Shown here: positions 17,963 through 56,369 of the stretch, one piece after another | Position numbering within the stretch: the stretch's first letter is position 1 | Layout of the letters: every line of letters begins with the position of its first letter | Assembly: GCA_024679065.1 (NCBI GenBank) | Contig: JAGIQG010000032.1 | Location: forward strand, 14,074,001 to 14,138,000 | DNA length: 64,000 bases | Direction: 5' to 3' | From: Sphyrna mokarran | Lineage: Eukaryota | The notes under the pieces: model-generated | Databases searched by the model: none | What the model was told of the DNA's origin: nothing | Seen by the model: the letters and a program-made list of their open reading frames with translations, nothing else | Translations under genes and position numbers: made by a program

Positions 17963-18221
17963 TAATTGAGTGTGAAGCTTAAATAGATTAATCTGTACCT
18001 CAACAGTCTTCATCCTTTAGATGGAATTAAACTAAGTTCCAACAGAAATTTCTGGAATATTAAAGCGCACAATTCATCTCCTCTAATTGCCTGTAAATTT
18101 ATAACAAGTAATTTGGCCTCAATTTTGGCAATTTTCAATAATTAACTTTTAAAAATATTGCATTTTGGTATCCCAATCAGCTTTGTGGTTAAGGCACCAG
18201 AGGGTGTGGTGCTCAACCATA

Positions 18222-19962
18222 AAGAATGAAAGAACAAAGAACAAAGAACAAAACAGCACGGGAAACAGGCCCCTCAGCCCAACGAGCCCACGCCGCCACC
18301 CCGATGTTCCCACCTCTACCCGCGATCCCTGTCCATATTTATAGATCTATGGATTATAAACCAAATTTGAGATAATTTAGGGAGAATTTGTTTTGCCAAT
18401 TATCCTAAGAGCACATCTTTGGGATGTGGGAGGAAACCGGAGCACCCGGAGAAAACCCACGCAAGCACGGGGAGAATGCGCAAACTTCCACAGACACAGG
18501 CCCAAATCCATGTATCTGCACAGCACAGTGATAGTCACTGAGCTGTCGTGTTGCCCATCAAATGGTCCAGGTCAAGCATACACTAACTACGTGAAGCACT
18601 AGGATACTCTCAAAACAAAATCCAAGAGCAGTCCTCTCACGACCCATCGCGTGTGTGCCCCGCATTAGACAACAAGGTGGACCAAAGCGCCTGTAGGATA
18701 TAAAACAGGTACGTCAATATCATCATCTATTTACACACTTCCCAGGAACTCCCAAGGCTCATGATCCCTATTTTAAATCAGTTTTCTACACCCCTCCATT
18801 CCCATTCTGTTCATGTGTCCATCTAAGTATTTCTTAAATATCTCCAGAGTGCCTGCCTCCACACTTTACTTGGCAGCGCATTCCATACTCCCACCACCCT
18901 CTGTGTGAAAAAACTCCCTCTAGCATCCAAATTATACCTTACCCCCCTCACCCTAAACCCGTGACCCCTCGTGCTATTCGAGTCCATCCTAGGAAAAAGC
19001 TTAACCCTGTTTACTCTATCTATACCTCTCAATCTTGTACACCTCTATTAGATCTCCTCGAAGTCTACATCCTTCTAAGGAAAACAGCCCCAATTTGCCT
19101 AACCTCTCCTCGTAACTCAGACCTTCCATACCAGGCAGCATCCTGGTAAACCTCCTCTGCACTGTCTCCAGAGTCTCCACGTCCTTCCAGTAGTAGGGCA
19201 ACCGGAACTGGATGCAGTATTCCAAATGAGGTTTAACCAACGTTTTATACAACTGCAACATTAAAGGCCAGCTCTTGTACTCTATACCCCGTCCTGTAAA
19301 AGCTAACATACTATATGCTTTCTTCACAACCTTCTCCACTTGCTCTGCCACCTTCAGAGACTTGTTCACCTGCACTCCCAGGTCCCTCTGCGTTTCTATA
19401 CTCTTAATAGGTCTACTCTATCATATACCTCCCCACTACATTCTTTCTCCTGAAATGCATCACCTCACATTTATCAGAATTGAGTTCCATCTGCCATCTG
19501 TCTGCCCAAGCTACCAGCCTATCTACGTCCTGCTGCATTGCCTGACAATGCTCCTCACTATCCACAAGTCCAGCCATCTTTGTATTGTCTGCAAACTTGC
19601 TGATCACTCCACTTATTCCCTCTTCCAAGTCATTTATATATATTACAAATAGAAGAGGTCCCAGTACCGAGCCCTGCGGCACATCACTAGTGAGCGACCT
19701 CCAGCTAGAAAAACACCCTTTCACTATTACTCTCTGTCTCCTATTACCAAGCCAGTTACTTATCCATCTAGCTACCTGTCCTTGTATCCCATTAGCCTTG
19801 ACCTTCTCAACTAATAGTCCTGTGAGGGACTTTGTCAAACGCCTTACTAAAATCCATACAGACGACATCAACGGCTCGCCCTTCATCCACCATTTTCGTC
19901 ACCTCCTCAAAAAATTCTACCAGATTCGTAAGGCACGACCTTCCCTTAACAAATCCATGCTG
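18222..19962 (-). mobile_element. CR1 LINE (5'-truncated) with an extended composite 3' UTR
   Basis: ORF fragments 19807-19989, 19413-19886, 19016-19375 and 18823-19032 give CR1 RT ([40 protein letters not shown]). The ~570-bp 3' UTR ends in (TTCTTTG)n. Confidence 0.92.
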
Positions 19963-20384
19963 CGGGATCCAAGTTAAATCTCTGCTCACTCAGACAATTA
20001 GAAGCCTTGGCAGCAGCTGGGACTTCAGTACACGTGAGCTTGGGAGGAGAAAAAAGAACATTCAGGTCCCCCATTCCTGATTGCAATCCTGTGATTACTG
20101 CTTATGGCATCAAGGAAGAGCAGAATCGTGCTTGAAAAAGGATGCAGGGCAGCACTGGACACTTGTAACAGTAGTCATTTGATTGAAGAACCAGAGAACT
20201 ATAGATACTCATAGAATCAAACCTCAATCGGAATCAATGCCTTCAGAAAGTAAGGGGGAGAAATTACAGTGATAATACTCAATGCAACAATTCACCACAT
20301 ACACATAACATAGATAGTCAGTAATTTTTTTATTGTGCACAAACAGTAAACTATTACGATGGAACCTACCTTTTTTAATCTCAT

Positions 20385-22450
20385 TAATGCGATGTGGGTG
20401 TTGATGACTAGCATTTATAGCCATCCATAATTGCCCCTGAGAAGGGCACATGAAGGAACAGTGAAGGAATGGAGATATTGTTCCAAGTCAGGACAGTGAG
20501 TGACATGGAGGAAAATTCCAGGTAGCAGCATTCCCATATGTCTGCTGTCCTTGTTCTTTTAGAAGATAGCTGCCATGGATTTGTGGGGTGCTGCCTTAGG
20601 AGTCTTTGTGAATTCCTACTGTGCATCTTGCAGATGGTGCACACTGCTGCCACTGTTCATCAGTGATGATTGGATGGATGTTTGTGGAAGGGGTACCAAT
20701 CAAATAGGTGGCATTGAAAAGAATAGTGTCAAGCTTCTCAAGAGTTGTTGGAGCTGCATTCATCCAGGTAAATGGGGAGTATTCCATCACACACTCCTGA
20801 CGTGTGCCTTGTAGATAGTGGACAGGCTTTGAGGAGTCAAAGAACAAACAAAGAGCAACACAGCACGGGAAACAGGCCCTTCGGCCCAACGAGCCCGCGC
20901 CGCCATCCTAACATCTTAATGACATATCCTTGACTTTAGGCTATGCCTATTGTTGAAGATTCCCATATAGGGACCAATATAGGGACAATTTGATACCCAA
21001 TCAGCCTAACAGCACATTTTTGGGATGTGGGAGGAAACCGGAGCACCCGGAGGAAACCCACGCAACCACGGGGAGAACGCACAAACTCCCGCAGACACAA
21101 GCCCAAATCCATGTGTCAGCACAGCAACAGCGCTAGTCTCTGAGCTGTCATGTTGCCCATCAGATGGTCCAGTTTAAGCATACACTGACGACGTGAAGCA
21201 CTAGGCAACTCCTGAAGCAACCTCCAAGAGCAGTTCTCGCACGACATGCCACATGCATGCCCCTTGTTGGTCAACAAGGTGGACCGAATTGTCTGCGGAA
21301 ACAAATAAGACTTAATTAAACATGCTAAAAAAAAACTAAGACATTCCCGAGACAAAACTAAAAGATAGTCTACTACTATTTGGTCCTCCCGATATTCAAA
21401 CAAACAGTCTTGCTATATCCCTCTATCTGCAGACCGCTCATGTGGCTATCCAAGAGACCCTTAAACAACCCTAGTGTGCCTGCTTCCACCACCTTACTCG
21501 GTAGTGCATTCCACGCCCCCACTACCCTTTGTGTGAAAAACTGGCCTCTAATATTCGTCATGTACATAGCCCCCCTCACCCTGAGCCTGTGACCCCTCAT
21601 TCTATTCATTTCTAATGGTGGAAAAAGCTTACCACCATTTACTCTATCTATACCCCTCATAATCTTATATACCTCTAAAAGATCTCCTCTCAGCCGACGT
21701 CTTTCAAGGGAAAACAACCCCAGTGTTTTCAATCTTTCCTCGTAAGACAGCCTTTCCATACCAAGCAGCATCCTGGTAAATCTCCTCTGCAATCTCTCCA
21801 GGCCTCTACATCCTTCCTGTAGTACGGCGACCAGAACTGGACGCAGTACTCCAGATGAGGCCTAACCAACGTTCTATACACCTGCAACATCAGACTCCTA
21901 CTCTTGTATTCTATACCCCTTCCTATGAAGGCTAACATACCATACGCTTTTTTTTAAACCACATTCTCCACCTGTACTGACATCTTCAGAGACTTGTGAA
22001 CTTGCACCCCCAGGTCTCTCTGCATCTCTATACTCCGGATAGTTTTACCTTTTATCCTATAACTCCCCTCTACATTATTCCGGCCAAAATGCATCACCTC
22101 GCGTTTATCCGGATTAAATTCCATTTGCCAGTCTACCAGCCTATCAGTAGATATCAGTCTGTAGGTGAGTTAACAGATTCCTAGCCTCTGACCTGCTCTT
22201 TTTCCTTTTAGCTAGAGTATGTATATGGCTAGTCCAGTTCAGATTCTAGTCAATGGTAACTTTTTAGATGTTGATATGGGGGGACTAAGTCATGGAAATG
22301 CCACTGAATGTTAAGGGATGCTGGTTAGATTATCTCTGTTTGGAGATGGTAATTTTCTGGAACTTGTATGGCACAAATGTTACTTGCCACTCGTCAGCCC
22401 AATCCTGGATACTGTTCAGATCATACTGCATTTAGACATATTTAGACATG
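20385..22450 (-). mobile_element. Older CR1-group LINE split by the insertion at 20840-22143
   Basis: 20385-20839 (MEYSPFTWMNAAPTTLEKLDTI) continues colinearly at ~22156 (AGTC..AGGTGAGTTA...CTCTGACCTGCTCTT). Confidence 0.7.
20840..22143 (-). mobile_element. CR1 LINE (5'-truncated) with the same composite 3' UTR as 18222-19962
   Basis: ORFs 21729-21938 and 21376-21792 (LVRPHLEYCVQFWSP, RLRGDLLEVYKIMRG, FFTQRVVGAWNALP). The 3' UTR is homologous to 18222-18700. Confidence 0.92.
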
Positions 22451-43235: not shown

Positions 43236-43367
43236 TAAAAAGCAGAGAACCACTGAGAAATTTCTGGATTTCGGCATTTAATTGCAGATGTGTACATGCC
43301 AGATGCTGCTGTCAGTTCATAGTTGTAATGACAGTGAACAGTGGCAATTTCACTATTATTACAACCA

Positions 43368-43902
43368 CAAAACTCTGGTGCGGCCACACTTGGAGTATTG
43401 CATACAGTTCTGGTCGCCGCATTATAAGAAAGATGTGGAAGCATTGGAAAGGGTGCAGAGGAGGTTTACCAGGATGTTGCCTGGTATGGTGGGAAGGCCT
43501 TATGAGGAAAGGCTGAGGGACCTGAGGTTATTTTCATTAGAGAGAAGAAGGTTACGCGGTGACCTAATTGAGGCGTATAAGATGATCAAGGGATTGGATA
43601 GGGTGGATAGTGAGAGCCTTTTTCCTCGGATGGTGATGACCAACACGAGGGGACATAACTTTAAATTAAGAGGTGGTAGTTATAGGACGGATGTCAGAGG
43701 CAGGTTCTTTACACAGAGGGTGGAGAGAGCGTGGAATGCCCTGCCTGCAGCAGTTGTGGACTCGCCTACTTTGGGGGCATTCAAATGGTCGGTGGATAGG
43801 CATATGGATGGTATTGGAATAGTTTAGGTTAGAGGGTCCACTGGCCGGCGCAACATCGAGGGCCTAAGGGCCTGCACTGCGCTGTAATGTTCTATGTTCT
43901 AT
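43368..43902 (+). mobile_element. Young CR1 LINE 3' fragment (open frame to the stop codon, short 3' UTR)
   Basis: KTLVRPHLEYCIQFWSPHYKKDVEALERVQRRFTRMLPG...DRHMDGIGIV*, followed by tail TAATGTTCTATGTTCTAT. Confidence 0.92.
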
Positions 43903-48185: not shown

Positions 48186-49520
48186 TTAGTGTTAATGATC
48201 CATCATAAAAACTCAAAAACAATTTTGCTGCTATTTTGAGTAAAGCACAAGTACAGGTCATTTCTACCTCTCAGAGATAAGCTCAGAAATTCAATGAAAC
48301 ATGGCATATTTTACAGGTGTGGAATGGGCACCAAAGTATTCTATTAGAAAAGCACCACCTGCCATATTGTTACATAGCATCAAAACAGGCAGCCAGGAAT
48401 CATGCCTAAAATGACATTATTAGGCCATTTATTTGAATATGCAATAACATACAATGCCTCCTTTACTAAATCATTTTGCCCTTAACATAGTTGCTATCTG
48501 TCACCTAAAGTGTCAGTTTATGAAAAAGATAGACCCTTGAGATCCAGATAGATACTGAGAGACATAGGATTACTCCTCCAGATCCATATTAAAATCACAG
48601 GCCGCTGCTAATCTCCAACTGCCATCCATGCCCTTCAACTTTCTCAATTATCTCCCACTCTACTAATTGCCTCCTGCATCATTCTCCTCCTCCCCCAATC
48701 TGAATCAGCCACCTTATTTCACCCACTTCACTTGATGACTCCAACTGCACCTTCCCAATCATTAACAAACCCCACCTCTCTCAGTCAACATCTCCACAAA
48801 CTGCTCTTTCTCCTCCAGCAACCTCTCCCCATTACATGCCCCCTCATCACAACCATCTCCCAACCCCATGACCTAACTGATCTCAATCTAATATAAATGC
48901 AGACTAACATCAGCAGAGTCTTGGGCCTACCCATTCTGATGGAGGGTTCGACCCCTGCACCCAGCCTTTGTTGACCTACATATTTCTAGCCTACTTAATG
49001 CAGATAAATTTGCTGCTGTGTAGCTGACCATCAAGGGTAAAAACAGGAATCGCTATAAATGCGAATTGAGGATTGTCCAAGCCTGCAAAAACATCATGCA
49101 TTTTGACTTTAAATTTCCCAATTACTCCAAACCAAATTTGCCTTGATCTTATATCTGCTCTGTTACATAAGCAATGTACAATTGCTTTTGGTATTAACTT
49201 TGTAAACATTGGTAAGAACTGCTAGAGATAGATTTATCAGGATCCTGGTCAGGAATCTTCAATAAAAAGGTACAAAACAATGCATTCTTTCCTCCTTTTA
49301 TAACTTCTATTTTTGAGTGCTGTATTAAAAGTACAGAATGATATCCAAATAATGTTTTGCTTTCATTCCTCTATGTGATTGTAGATTTTACCATCAACCA
49401 ATTCAATAAACTTTAGCTCCAATTGGAGATAGCACCGGCACTTTCTGGTATCAACACAACAAACTCTGTCAAATCGCATACACTGCAACTATGAAGGGTG
49501 AAGGTAAAGTTAAGACTCAC

Positions 49521-49685
49521 AAGAACTCGGCCAGTCAGAGTTTGGGCAGATATCATGACCCCTGCCCAGTCTTTTACAGAAGTCATCCAGCCCACTTCCC
49601 CTTGTGGTATTTCTTCCTTTTCGTCCAGCTCTTGGAGAACATCATCTGGCTGGTTAGATGAGCCAACACCAATTTTCTGTGCATC
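49521..49685 (-). CDS. KCNMA1: Internal coding exon (equivalent to exon 2; S0-S1 loop and start of S1) of a Slo1/BK calcium-activated potassium channel alpha subunit
   Basis: Minus strand reads ...tttgctttttttcag|GAT GCA CAG AAA ATT...GGC CGA GTT CTT|gtgagt. It is 165 nt, phase 0/0, and translates to [55 protein letters not shown]. The C-terminal [26 protein letters not shown] matches vertebrate KCNMA1, and the exon boundaries match its exon 2. A Slo1-like paralog cannot be excluded. Confidence 0.92.
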
Positions 49686-49734
49686 CTGAAAAAAAGCAAA
49701 CAGGAAAATATAGTTTTAGTTTCCATCAGTAAGA

Positions 49735-53404: not shown

Positions 53405-53662
53405 GGGTGGCACAGAGGTTAGCACTGCTGCCTCACAGTGCCAGGGACCCAAGTTTAATTCCTGGCTCCACAAATGTCTGTGTGGAGTTTACACATCCTC
53501 CCCTTGTCTGCATAGGGGTGCTCCGGTTTCCTCCTATAGTCCAAAGATCCGCAGGTTAATTTGATTGGCCCTGTTAAACTGCCCTGAGTGTCAGGAGGAT
53601 TAGTGGGGTAAATATGTAGGGTTATGGCCTCATTCTGCACTGTCAGGATCCTAGGGATTCTG
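53405..53662 (+). mobile_element. HE1-like V-SINE
   Basis: GGGTGGCACAGAGGTTAGCACTGCTGCCTCACAGTGCCAGGGACCC...GGTGCTCCGGTTTCCTCC...CTGCACTGT. Confidence 0.85.
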
Positions 53663-55318
53663 CATAGAACATAGAACACTACAGCACAAACAGGCCCTTC
53701 GGCCCACAAGTTGTGCCGAACACATCAAAACCTACCCAGCCATAGACCTATCTATAACCCCCAATCCCATTGGATCCCATATACTCATCCAGAAGTCTTT
53801 TAAAAGACCCCAGCGAGTTCGCCTCGACCACCACCGACGGCAGCCGATTCCATTCACTCACCACCCTCTGAGTGGAAAACTTTCCCCTAGCATCCCCTCT
53901 GTACTTGCTTCCCTGCACCTTAAATCTGTGCCCTCTCGTCACGACCATTTCAGCCCTGGGAAATACTCTCTGAGAGTCCACCCTATCTATTCCTCTCAAC
54001 ATCTTGTAAACCTCTATCAGGTCGCCTCTCAACCTTCGTCTCTCCAGGGAGAACAGTCCCAGCTCCCTCAACCTGTCTTCATAAGGCATGCCTCCCAATC
54101 CAGGCAACATCCTTGTAAATCTCCTCTGCACCCTTTCAATAGCTTCCACGTCCTTCCTATAGTGAGGCGACCAGAACTGCGCACAGTACTCCAAGTGTGG
54201 TCTGACAAGGGTCCTATAAAGCTGCAGCATTACCTCCTGACTCCTGAACTCAATCCCTCGATGAATGAAGGCCAGTACACCGTAAGCTTTCTTAACCACA
54301 TCCTCCACCTGGGAGGCCGATTTGAGAGTCTTATGGACCCGGACCCCAAGATCCCTCTGCTCTTCCACACAGCTAAGACTCCTACCTTTGATAGTGTACT
54401 CATTCATCCCGTTGGATCTGCCAAAATGGACCACAACACATTTATCCGCGTTGAAGTCCATCTGCCACTTCTCCGCCCAGTCTTGCATCCTGTCGATGTC
54501 ATGCTGCAACTTCTGACATCCCTCCAGACCATCCACAACACCACCGACCTTCGTGTCATCGGCGAACTTACTCACCCATCCCTCCACTTCCTCATCCAGG
54601 TCATTTATGAAAATGACAAACAGCAAGGGTCCTAGAACAGATCCCTGGGGCACTCCACTGGTGACCGACCTCCATGCAGAAAAAGAGCCATCCACAACCA
54701 CCCTCTGCCTTCTGCAGGCAAGCCAGTTCTGGATCCACAAGGCCAAAGCCCCTTGGATCCCATGGCCTCTCACCTTCTCAAGAAGTCTTGCATGTGGGAC
54801 CTTGTCAAATGCCTTGCTGAAGTCCATGTACACCACGTCCACTGCTCTTCCTTCGTCAATGTGTTCAGTCACATTTTCGAAGAACTCAATTAAGCTTGTA
54901 AGGCACGACCTGCCTTTTACAAAACCATGTTGACTATTTCTAATTAACCTAAACTTCTCCAAATGCTCGTAAATCTTGTCCCTCAGAAGCCTCTCCATCA
55001 GCTTACCAACCACTGAGGTCAGACTCACCGGTCGGTAATTTCCAGGACTATCCCTGTTCCCTTTCTTGAAAATAGGGACCACATCCGCAATCCTCCAATC
55101 CTCCGGAACCCCTCCCGTCTCCATCGACGACACAAAGATCATCGCCAGGGGCTCTGCAATGACATCCCTCACCTCCCACAATAACCTGGGGTACATCCCA
55201 TCTGGTCCCGGAAACTTGTCTATCTTGATAGCATTTAGAAGTTCTAACACATCCGCTTCCTTAATATCTACATACTCAATCTTTTCAGTCTGCCGCAAAC
55301 TTGTAGTGCATCCTCCCA
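53663..55318 (-). mobile_element. Young 5'-truncated CR1 (HER1-like) LINE
   Basis: Uninterrupted RT frame, short 3' UTR and (TTCTATG)n tail. Confidence 0.95.
53748..55298 (-). CDS. CR1 ORF2 remnant: intact RT and C-terminal domain (516 aa), no endonuclease domain
   Basis: Motifs [46 protein letters not shown] and RPHLEYC, with no stops or frameshifts. Truncated, so probably not expressed on its own. Confidence 0.85.
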   Translation of the reverse strand: MRQTEKIEYVDIKEADVLELLNAIKIDKFPGPDGMYPRLLWEVRDVIAEPLAMIFVSSMETGGVPEDWRIADVVPIFKKGNRDSPGNYRPVSLTSVVGKLMERLLRDKIYEHLEKFRLIRNSQHGFVKGRSCLTSLIEFFENVTEHIDEGRAVDVVYMDFSKAFDKVPHARLLEKVRGHGIQGALALWIQNWLACRRQRVVVDGSFSAWRSVTSGVPQGSVLGPLLFVIFINDLDEEVEGWVSKFADDTKVGGVVDGLEGCQKLQHDIDRMQDWAEKWQMDFNADKCVVVHFGRSNGMNEYTIKGRSLSCVEEQRDLGVRVHKTLKSASQVEDVVKKAYGVLAFIHRGIEFRSQEVMLQLYRTLVRPHLEYCAQFWSPHYRKDVEAIERVQRRFTRMLPGLGGMPYEDRLRELGLFSLERRRLRGDLIEVYKMLRGIDRVDSQRVFPRAEMVVTRGHRFKVQGSKYRGDARGKFSTQRVVSEWNRLPSVVVEANSLGSFKRLLDEYMGSNGIGGYR

Positions 55319-56369
55319 GATTCTACGTGATCTAAAGTTTCATTTTTTTTTCTAAAGGATCTTGCCATCATAACCAATTCCCAAATTATTGGCACACCTT
55401 CAACTTCCCAACTGGACAATTTACTTCCATTTGAAATCTGCAATGGTTGATGTGCTCAAATAAGCAAAGTCTTTCTTGTCCATCTTTTTTCCCCTGTCCA
55501 CCATCAAACTTTCACTCTTGCCCATATTTCCATGCTGCAGCCCATCTCTTCGCTCCCTAAAATCCAGTGGTGGCTGCAAATTTCAAAACATTGGGTGCAC
55601 AACTGGTTTGACCATCCTTCCACTGGGCCCGCTCGCCTCCACCAAAATCGCTCACTACTCCAAGACGGTGTTTGTCATGGTCTGAGTTTCAATGCTGGAA
55701 GATAGGATATTGTTCCACCTGAAGTCAGCGTTGAGCAGTCATTGATTAGGTATAAAAGGATGAAATACATAATGTCTAATAAATACACTGGGACAAATTT
55801 CACATCATACTTCACATCCCACAATATGTGTGATGCGAGAAATGTTGTTAACAAAAGATACATTAAGAAAAAAAGTAAGATTCTTCAGCAAGTACTTCTT
55901 CTTAACTAACGTATAGTCTACCCAGCTAGTTTTTGCGTCAGGCTCCTTAAGAAACTGAACAACTATTGAGAATATTGTGCTCTGGAAGTCTAAGTATAAA
56001 AAGTACAGGAGAGTTATAACACGTAATGCTCAATATCTTATTTGCTGTTCAGGTATCACTAAGTAACAAGGCTTACACTAATTCTGGCCCCCTCCTCAGC
56101 TTAATTGGAGCATGAAGAACAACTATCTGCGAAGATCAGCAATAGAAGAAAATGACCAGCATTTTTTTTTTTAAAGATTGTTCTGCATCTGTAACAACAT
56201 GCGACAGACTCTGTTAACCGTCTGCACAAACACTGGCAAATGCACATCTCCTGTGGCCAGTGAGTTAGTGGTTATGTTATTGAAAAAGAGGAAGCTGATA
56301 GAGCATACGGCAACATGGAAGGTCTACACAAATCCACTGGAAGAATTTAGGAAGATATTCTGGATTGAT

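What the first reader, a model, noticed from the sequence alone, without database searches (positions are those of the whole stretch)
21165..21286. Second, diverged copy of the 3' UTR domain keeps every helix through compensatory changes
In this different CR1 subfamily the helices read P1 GGUCCA/UGGACC, P2 CCUUGUU-gacc-AACAAGG, P3 GGCAUGCAU/GUGUAUGCU (9/9 with wobbles) and P5 GCUCUUGGAG/CUUCAGGAGU (10/10). P5's 3' strand changed from UUUGAGAGU to UUCAGGAGU and P2's from AAUGCGG to AACAAGG while pairing is retained. The UTR sequence upstream of the domain (18700-18780 vs 21300-21400) does not align, and the ORF2 ends differ (KLFPRMDSNSTRGH vs KLFPPLEMNRMRGH). Structure conserved while sequence diverges points to selection at the level of RNA fold.
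Basis: seen in the sequence. Interest (0 to 1): 0.7.

Follow-up and report, generated by a model that had tools for sequence, protein, structure and literature searches.

The report
Selected RNA fold in shark LINE
A very common jumping gene of a shark-like fish carries, just behind its protein code, a folded RNA arm whose base pairing was kept while its active lineages diverged (one side branch is dispensable), so it is likely a working RNA signal, probably one that protects the element's unusually long RNA tail.

Summary
The helices are real: 21166-21285 (minus strand) folds with z = -3.4, in a 5'-truncated CR1 LINE. The evidence offered for them is mostly wrong. Between the two window copies no pair changes on both sides. 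P1 and the 5' strands of P2 and P5 are unchanged, and copy A's AAUGCGG is private decay that breaks a pair. The conclusion still holds on better data. Sampling the genome (about 55,000 copies, rough) gave subfamilies A, B, C, F, G and a D series. Lineage changes keep pairing more often than simulated (204 of 216 cells against 186, or 190 with CpG decay; 0 of 400 each). Mutations in dead copies do not (58 of 142 kept, 57 expected). Four pairs show two-step compensatory paths, but two-sided changes are not above chance, and transitions alone give P about 0.05-0.07. P2 is deleted in 19 of 33 D copies, so not every helix is kept. The fold sits between a conserved acceptor-like pyrimidine tract and a captured, promoter-less V-SINE. 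No Rfam match, not a hatchet ribozyme or ENE, and no cleaved or spliced copies were found. Best guess: a cis-acting stabiliser of a long 3' UTR (untested).

The parts
20838..22141 (-). Copy B: 5'-truncated CR1 LINE, subfamily B
   Evidence: other B copies about 95% identical over the element
21376..22141 (-). 3' end of ORF2 (broken by small indels; a 4-nt duplication moves the stop in this copy)
   Evidence: a full-length relative (L325) has esterase-like ORF1 and endonuclease + RT ORF2
21321..21395 (-). Variable upstream UTR; stop to the CAG is 17-160 nt by subfamily, and A and B align only at shuffle level
21293..21320 (-). 3' splice-acceptor-like motif: branch-like YTRAY, pyrimidine tract, CAG; its last bases also form the 5' strand of basal helix P0
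   Evidence: YAG in 129 of 140, branch-like motif in 105 of 140 pre-filtered copies; no use as a splice site shown
21166..21285 (-). Structured domain: P1 closing a three-way junction, short hairpin P2 (dispensable), long irregular arm P3a-P3b-middle-P5
21156..21165 (-). 3' strand of basal extension P0 (lost in subfamily F while CAG is kept)
21101..21158 (-). Degenerate tRNA-type SINE head without the B-box-like GGTTC(G/A)ATTC seen in free SINE copies; refolded into hairpins
21013..21100 (-). V-SINE central domain (0.89-0.94 identical between subfamilies)
   Evidence: the V-domain label is recalled, and HE1 as the shark V-SINE is from PMC4824008 passages
20838..20904 (-). CR1 3' tail stem-loop and short simple-repeat end
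   Evidence: (43-44 of 44 identical)
18225..19980 (-). Copy A: 5'-truncated CR1, subfamily A, same 3' module
18564..18683 (-). Copy A structured domain, with private post-insertion decay

Best explanation
The region is a folded RNA arm in the 3' UTR of an abundant CR1 LINE lineage, its pairing kept during the evolution of the replicating elements, and it likely acts in cis as a protein-binding stabiliser that shields an unusually long 3' UTR from decay. Shown: the anatomy (ORF2 stop, variable spacer, pyrimidine tract + CAG, P0/P1-closed arm, promoter-less V-SINE head and core, variable linker, CR1 tail); folding on the LINE sense strand only; pairing kept in lineage changes but not in dead-copy mutations; P1 invariant, P2 dispensable. 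Inferred: an ancestral CR1 acquired a V-SINE-ended 3' extension, so its 3' UTR grew to about 0.45-0.6 kb. The pyrimidine tract just behind the stop would recruit a PTB/U2AF-type protein and the arm would compact the UTR, lowering UPF1/NMD-type decay or aiding export and RNP assembly. Elements that kept the fold left more copies. The arm is not the RT recognition site, which is the 3' tail.
For: Sense-strand z -2.1 to -4.8 in 14 of 15 rows (window copy A -0.7), antisense z -1.0 to +0.7. 204 of 216 cells paired against 185.7 (random) and 190.1 (CpG x10), 0 of 400 each; alignment energy, refolded in every simulation, reached by 0 and 1 of 400. With the structure taken from A+C only, 19 of 34 stem changes in the B/G/F/D clade end paired against 12.5 expected (P 0.002); the reverse test gives 7 of 10 against 4.2 (P 0.03). 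Control: private mutations in copies keep 58 of 142 pairs against 57.1 expected; lineage 28 of 39 against 58 of 142, P 0.0005 (structure not independent). Two-step paths: 21257-21181 U-A/U-G/C-G, 21253-21185 C-G/U-G/U-A, 21247-21193 G-C/A.C/A-U, 21227-21212 U-A/U-G/C-G. A-B identity: domain 0.79, four-fold sites 30 of 49 = 0.61, flanks 0.45 and 0.61. The pyrimidine tract survives shrinkage of the spacer to 17 nt in D. Precedent: the Rous sarcoma virus stability element recruits PTBP1 behind a stop codon, and UPF1 binds LINE-1 RNA (PMC5031192, passages).
Against: No functional data; the protective role is an analogy. Two-sided changes are not above chance (47 of 400; 152 of 500). Transitions alone: 17 of 21 kept against 58 of 94 in dead copies, P 0.05-0.07; an all-transition null reaches the observed pairing in 21 of 400 and the energy in 51 of 400. 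Two of the 19 kept events lie in the ambiguously aligned P2 of D. D1 alone folds no better than 71 of 400 neutral simulations, and B-D domain identity (0.77) is below their four-fold identity (53 of 63 = 0.84). The register of the middle part is unresolved. All subfamily sequences come from one genome. The motif looks like a full splice acceptor, which a plain PTB site would not need.
Confidence: 0.45

Rival explanations
1. The fold is selected, but as part of one larger RNP-assembly or localisation signal together with the refolded SINE head and V domain; it binds ORF1p/ORF2p or a transport factor rather than shielding against decay.
For: Head and V domain are the best conserved parts (0.85-0.94) and form further hairpins, one with a two-sided A-U/U-G change. 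The function of SINE central domains is unknown, and RNA stability is only one proposal (PMC4824008, passages).
Against: The domain folds on its own, closed by P0/P1, with no predicted pairing to the V domain. Free V-SINEs and other CR1s without the domain are abundant in the window and samples, so RT recognition does not need it.
Confidence: 0.25
2. The module is a functional 3' splice acceptor plus a structured terminal exon; splicing from a donor in the element's 5' UTR or from host exons makes a short RNA that ends in the CR1 tail.
For: Branch-like motif 21-24 nt upstream, pyrimidine tract and YAG|G in the A, B, C and D consensuses; YAG in 129 of 140 copies. CAG is kept in F although its P0 partner changed. 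Donor-like sites lie in the 5' UTR of full-length D copies. One group of 3 contigs in run X9 continues at the acceptor into sequence without a pyrimidine tract (agreement 0.72).
Against: No spliced retrocopies: 0 of 8 D junction copies match either candidate donor exon, and 30 A junction copies share no upstream exon apart from two duplicated loci (that pattern would catch only about 18% of possible junctions). No pile-up of 5' ends at the acceptor. The 140 copies were pre-filtered for a pyrimidine tract, and the branch motif had no control. Splicing there would remove the end of ORF2.
Confidence: 0.12
3. The fold is a relic (for example a captured hairpin or inverted repeat) that hitchhikes next to the selected V domain; transition bias in a G-U-rich stem gives the look of conservation.
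For: No excess of two-sided changes; transitions-only P 0.05-0.07; P2 deleted in young D copies; fast change on the D branch.
Against: P1 is invariant in 15 of 15 rows; fewer lineage changes in stems than the dead-copy rate predicts (39 of 74, share 0.53 against 0.65, P 0.02); flanks on both sides decay to near shuffle level while the domain does not; no folding bias on the antisense strand.
Confidence: 0.13
4. A self-cleaving ribozyme (hatchet-like or of a new class) that processes the element's RNA.
For: Size, a three-way junction and conserved internal-loop bases; ribozymes are known in non-LTR elements (recalled).
Against: No Rfam match up to E 10; the hatchet core is missing; no conserved loop-loop helix of 4 bp or more; no pile-up of 5' ends upstream of the domain, and three partial copies start at scattered places inside it. 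A cut here would sever ORF2 from the tail it needs.
Confidence: 0.05

Closest known systems
CR1-clade LINEs of sharks and rays (HER1) and their partner V-SINE HE1
   Same: Esterase-like ORF1, endonuclease + RT ORF2, 5' truncation, conserved 3' tail stem-loop; HE1/HER1 are listed as a pair in PMC3747384 (table passage)
   Different: Here the LINE itself carries a promoter-less V-SINE and an extra 120-nt fold about 300 nt upstream of the tail. Identity with HER1 was not tested (no HER1 sequence on hand).
3'-terminal stem-loops of stringent LINEs and SINEs (CR1, L2, monocot L1)
   Same: Structure kept by compensatory or wobble changes in a LINE 3' UTR (PMC3747384 and PMC4824008, passages)
   Different: Those are short terminal RT-recognition hairpins; this element has such a tail separately. 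The domain is internal, larger and absent from other CR1s.
[quoted passage not shown]
   Same: Pyrimidine-rich element just behind a stop codon of a retroelement RNA with a long downstream region (PMC5031192, passage)
   Different: No sequence relationship was tested; PTBP1 binding and NMD escape are untested here; this motif also has branch and YAG features.
Hatchet ribozyme
   Same: Short hairpin followed by a long arm with internal loops; a GC...ACGU run on the 3' strand
   Different: Conserved core nucleotides are missing, the short hairpin can be deleted, and Rfam gives no match.

Membership tests
CR1-clade non-LTR retrotransposon | ORF2 with AP endonuclease and RT | tested here: met
   Full-length D copy L325: Exo_endo_phos E 1e-11, RVT_1 E 7e-34; D and B ORF2 ends share 163 of 172 aa
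CR1-clade non-LTR retrotransposon | Esterase-type ORF1 (vertebrate canonical CR1, PMC13343379 passage) | tested here: met
   Lipase_GDSL_2 E 1e-6, just under the curated cut-off; seen in D, not in the truncated window copies
CR1-clade non-LTR retrotransposon | 5' truncation, conserved 3' stem-loop with simple-repeat end | tested here: met
CR1-clade non-LTR retrotransposon | Placement by RT tree among reference CR1s | not testable with these tools
   No reference set held; only a tree among subfamilies was built
V-SINE (HE1 type) | About 80-bp central V domain | tested here: met
   The 88-nt segment matches the core of many free tRNA-headed SINE copies; not aligned to the published consensus, which could not be read
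V-SINE (HE1 type) | Intact tRNA-derived Pol III promoter and independent mobility | tested here: not met
   The B-box-like word of free copies is absent, and copies extend into ORF2 with scattered 5' ends
Hatchet ribozyme | C20-A21-A22 linker between the first two stems | tested here: not met
   P2 abuts P3 directly, and P2 is deleted in D2del-D4
Hatchet ribozyme | Conserved U28-G31, G63-G66 and A73-A75 | tested here: not met
   GC is followed by UUC or CUC, not AG, and no run of A follows ACGU; no Rfam hit
Hatchet ribozyme | Self-cleavage at the 5' base of P1 | not testable with these tools
   Only assembled contigs were available
ENE / dENE poly(A)-binding elements | U-rich internal loop on both strands (feature recalled) | tested here: not met
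   Internal loops are not U-rich in any of 15 rows; only A has a U-rich apical loop
Pseudoknotted ribozymes (HDV-like, twister) | Conserved loop-loop helices (feature recalled) | tested here: not met
   No helix of 4 bp or more between unpaired columns in six subfamilies; no Rfam hit
RSE-like NMD shield | Pyrimidine tract near the stop codon | tested here: met
   Directly behind the stop in D and F, 80-160 nt away in A, B and C
RSE-like NMD shield | PTBP1 binding and escape from UPF1 decay | not testable with these tools
   Needs CLIP and reporter assays

The most novel reading that the evidence does not exclude
A previously undescribed RNA element (splice-acceptor-like tract plus long irregular stem) lets a LINE carry a whole captured SINE core by shielding its long 3' UTR from nonsense-mediated decay, a LINE counterpart of the retroviral stability element. 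Its young subfamilies record, step by step, how the fold was remodelled and one helix discarded.
Probability: 0.2. Interest if true: 0.7.

Novelty: new variant of a known kind. Interest (0 to 1): 0.45.

Why it matters
Known cis-acting structures of CR1/L2 LINEs are the short terminal hairpins read by the reverse transcriptase. An internal fold under selection, in a lineage with tens of thousands of copies and intact young members, points to another level at which LINE RNAs are selected (stability, export or packaging). The natural series of variants (wobble intermediates, compensated pairs, P2 deletion) is a ready-made mutant set. It also bears on the open question of what the V domain of SINEs does.

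Tried and rejected
Rfam scan of 18000-22200 to E 10: three weak unrelated hits, none on the domain. Hatchet idea: rejected on core nucleotides. Pattern scans of metagenome and viral contigs: 0 matches each. Distant homologues: the covariance model found only known subfamilies in 878 kb, and a weak HMM hit in L138 was judged chance on inspection. An alternative middle register (columns 66-71 with 103-108), which gave an attractive A-U to G-C change, has ensemble probability of at most 0.02 in 14 of 15 rows, so I do not count that pair. Origin from the element's own ORF1 zinc-finger region: short word matches exist, but protein and DNA alignments are not above shuffles (P 0.055-0.96). Spliced or cleaved retrocopies: none found. 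Sequencing runs were contigs only, with RNA a guess, so they show presence in four other organisms but not expression, ends or strand; the V-domain part could not be examined in them. Literature searches returned no description of this domain. The original V-SINE paper was not held, the HE1/HER1 paper was not read, Repbase and Dfam were not available, and no supplements were read, so absence from print is not established.

Full report
Observation. The four helices are at the stated place on the minus strand and the segment folds better than 200 of 200 shuffles (z -3.38; plus strand +0.64). Window copy A (18564-18683) folds weakly (z -1.24). The pairwise alignment shows P1, the P2 5' strand and the first 9 nt of the P5 5' strand unchanged, so the quoted changes are one-sided. 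Consensuses of 30 close copies each show that A's P2 3' strand is AACGAGG; the window's AAUGCGG is private decay that breaks one pair. On a joint fold of the consensuses, A against B gives 0 two-sided changes, 12 one-sided changes that keep pairing and 4 breaks among 54 pairs.

What it is. Both copies are 5'-truncated CR1 LINEs. The 3' order is ORF2 stop, variable spacer, pyrimidine tract + CAG, domain, degenerate tRNA-type head, V-SINE core, variable linker, CR1 tail. Three of six long D copies reach a common 5' end about 4.15 kb upstream, and one has an esterase-like ORF1 and an open 989-aa endonuclease-RT ORF2. Eight position-chosen 100-kb blocks held 16 domain copies in 800 kb (a 17th hit of 8.6 bits was dropped as noise; the same 16), about 55,000 per genome as a rough figure. 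One 28-nt head variant alone has 10,267 exact matches. Contigs from runs of four other coded organisms cover the domain at 80% likeness or more and show mostly the variants shared by subfamilies A and C; three of the four show a pyrimidine tract continuing upstream. Shark or ray origin is inferred from the SINE and LINE content; no call names the organism.

Subfamilies. A, C, B, G, F and a young D series were found. A tree on ORF2 alone separates (A,C) from (G,F,D); the B-labelled rows dropped out at the length filter (32 of 44 rows kept), and the order inside D is not resolved by flanks. B's place next to D rests on ORF2 identity. For A-B, four-fold sites are 0.61 identical, the domain 0.79, head 0.91, V core 0.94, upstream spacer 0.45 and linker 0.61. 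For B-D, four-fold sites are 0.84 but the domain only 0.77: the D branch changed fast.

Is pairing selected? (1) Simulating the same number of changes per branch on four consensuses gave 185.7 paired cells (random) or 190.1 (CpG x10) against 204 of 216 observed, 0 of 400 each. The alignment energy, refolded each time, was reached by 0 and 1 of 400. An all-transition null reached the pairing in 21 of 400 and the energy in 51 of 400, but 27 of the 61 real changes are transversions. (2) Cross-validation: with the structure from A+C only, 19 of 34 stem changes in the other clade end paired (12.5 expected, P 0.002; two events lie in ambiguously aligned P2). The reverse test gives 7 of 10 (P 0.03). 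(3) Control: private mutations in dead copies keep 58 of 142 pairs (57.1 expected) and hit stems and other sites at similar rates. Against that control, all lineage stem changes give P 0.0005 and transitions alone P 0.05-0.07. (4) Only the sense strand folds better than shuffles. (5) Four pairs pass through a wobble or mismatch state to a new standard pair, yet the number of two-sided pairs is not above chance (47 of 400; 152 of 500). P1 never varies in 15 rows. P2 is unpaired in D1 and deleted in 19 of 33 position-sampled D copies. So the long arm and P1 are under purifying selection in the replicating elements, with moderate rather than overwhelming support, and P2 is not required.

Upstream motif. 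The A, B, C and D consensuses keep a branch-like YTRAY 21-24 nt before a pyrimidine tract and YAG|G, and D and F keep the tract and CAG where the spacer shrank to about 20 nt. Among 140 copies pre-filtered for the tract and an intact P1, 129 have YAG and 105 the branch-like motif (no control). The CAG also pairs in a basal helix P0, but F lost P0 and kept CAG. No spliced retrocopies and no pile-up of 5' ends were found; the A test had low sensitivity.

Mechanism. The terminal hairpin is the likely RT recognition site (established for stringent LINEs; PMC3747384, passages), and free V-SINEs and other CR1s move without the domain, so the arm does something else. I favour a cis-acting stabiliser: a pyrimidine-binding protein near the stop codon plus a compact fold that shields a 0.45-0.6 kb 3' UTR, by analogy with the Rous sarcoma virus stability element (PMC5031192, passage). 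This step is inferred and untested. Rivals are an RNP-assembly or localisation signal shared with the V core (0.25), a working splice acceptor (0.12), a hitchhiking relic (0.13) and a ribozyme (0.05).

Comparison with known systems. The element meets the CR1 features that could be tested. The embedded SINE keeps its core but not its promoter. The domain has no Rfam match and fails the hatchet, ENE and pseudoknot features. Papers seen: PMC6154101 passages; PMC6561176 parts 1-2 of 6; PMC13343379 abstract and passages; PMC3747384, PMC4824008 and PMC5031192 passages. Eight searches found no description of the domain, but repeat databases, the original HE1 and V-SINE papers and all supplements were not seen. 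Earlier notes of this scan already report the V-SINE capture; they are leads, not support.

Verdict. A real, selected and apparently undescribed internal RNA structure in a shark-type CR1 3' UTR: a new variant of a known kind, function unproven, interest 0.45.

Noticed in passing
window 49413-49715 (-): Exon of the BK channel alpha subunit (KCNMA1-like; E 2e-19). Both CR1 copies lie on the same strand and downstream of it, so probably in sense orientation in an intron, where their acceptor-like motif could trap host splicing.
   Followed up: partly
window 20400-20837 and 22145-22430 (-): Copy B appears to be inserted into an older, decayed retroelement fragment that continues on both sides.
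   Followed up: no
L321, L324, L325, L326 (5' ends): Full-length D copies have a TATA-like box and two donor-like sites (AAG|GTAAGA, ACG|GTGAGT) upstream of ORF1; no spliced copies to the 3' acceptor were found.
   Followed up: partly
D series, L251-L309: The D lineage ends in a short poly(A) run instead of the (TTCTTTG)n end of A, B and C, and its 3' module changed about 3.5 times more than its ORF2 end on the stem branch (0.17 against 0.048).
   Followed up: partly
L277:1470-1841 and L260:1471-1589: Another CR1 3' fragment is inserted at or next to the P5 loop of F-type domains at two different loci.
   Followed up: no
window 43282-43827 (+), 53655-55322 (-): Other CR1 subfamilies in the window lack the domain, and about ten free V-SINE copies are present.
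   Followed up: partly
L325, first 60 nt of ORF1: Several short words of the domain recur near the ORF1 start of D; not significant against shuffles, but a 5'-3' pairing was not excluded.
   Followed up: partly
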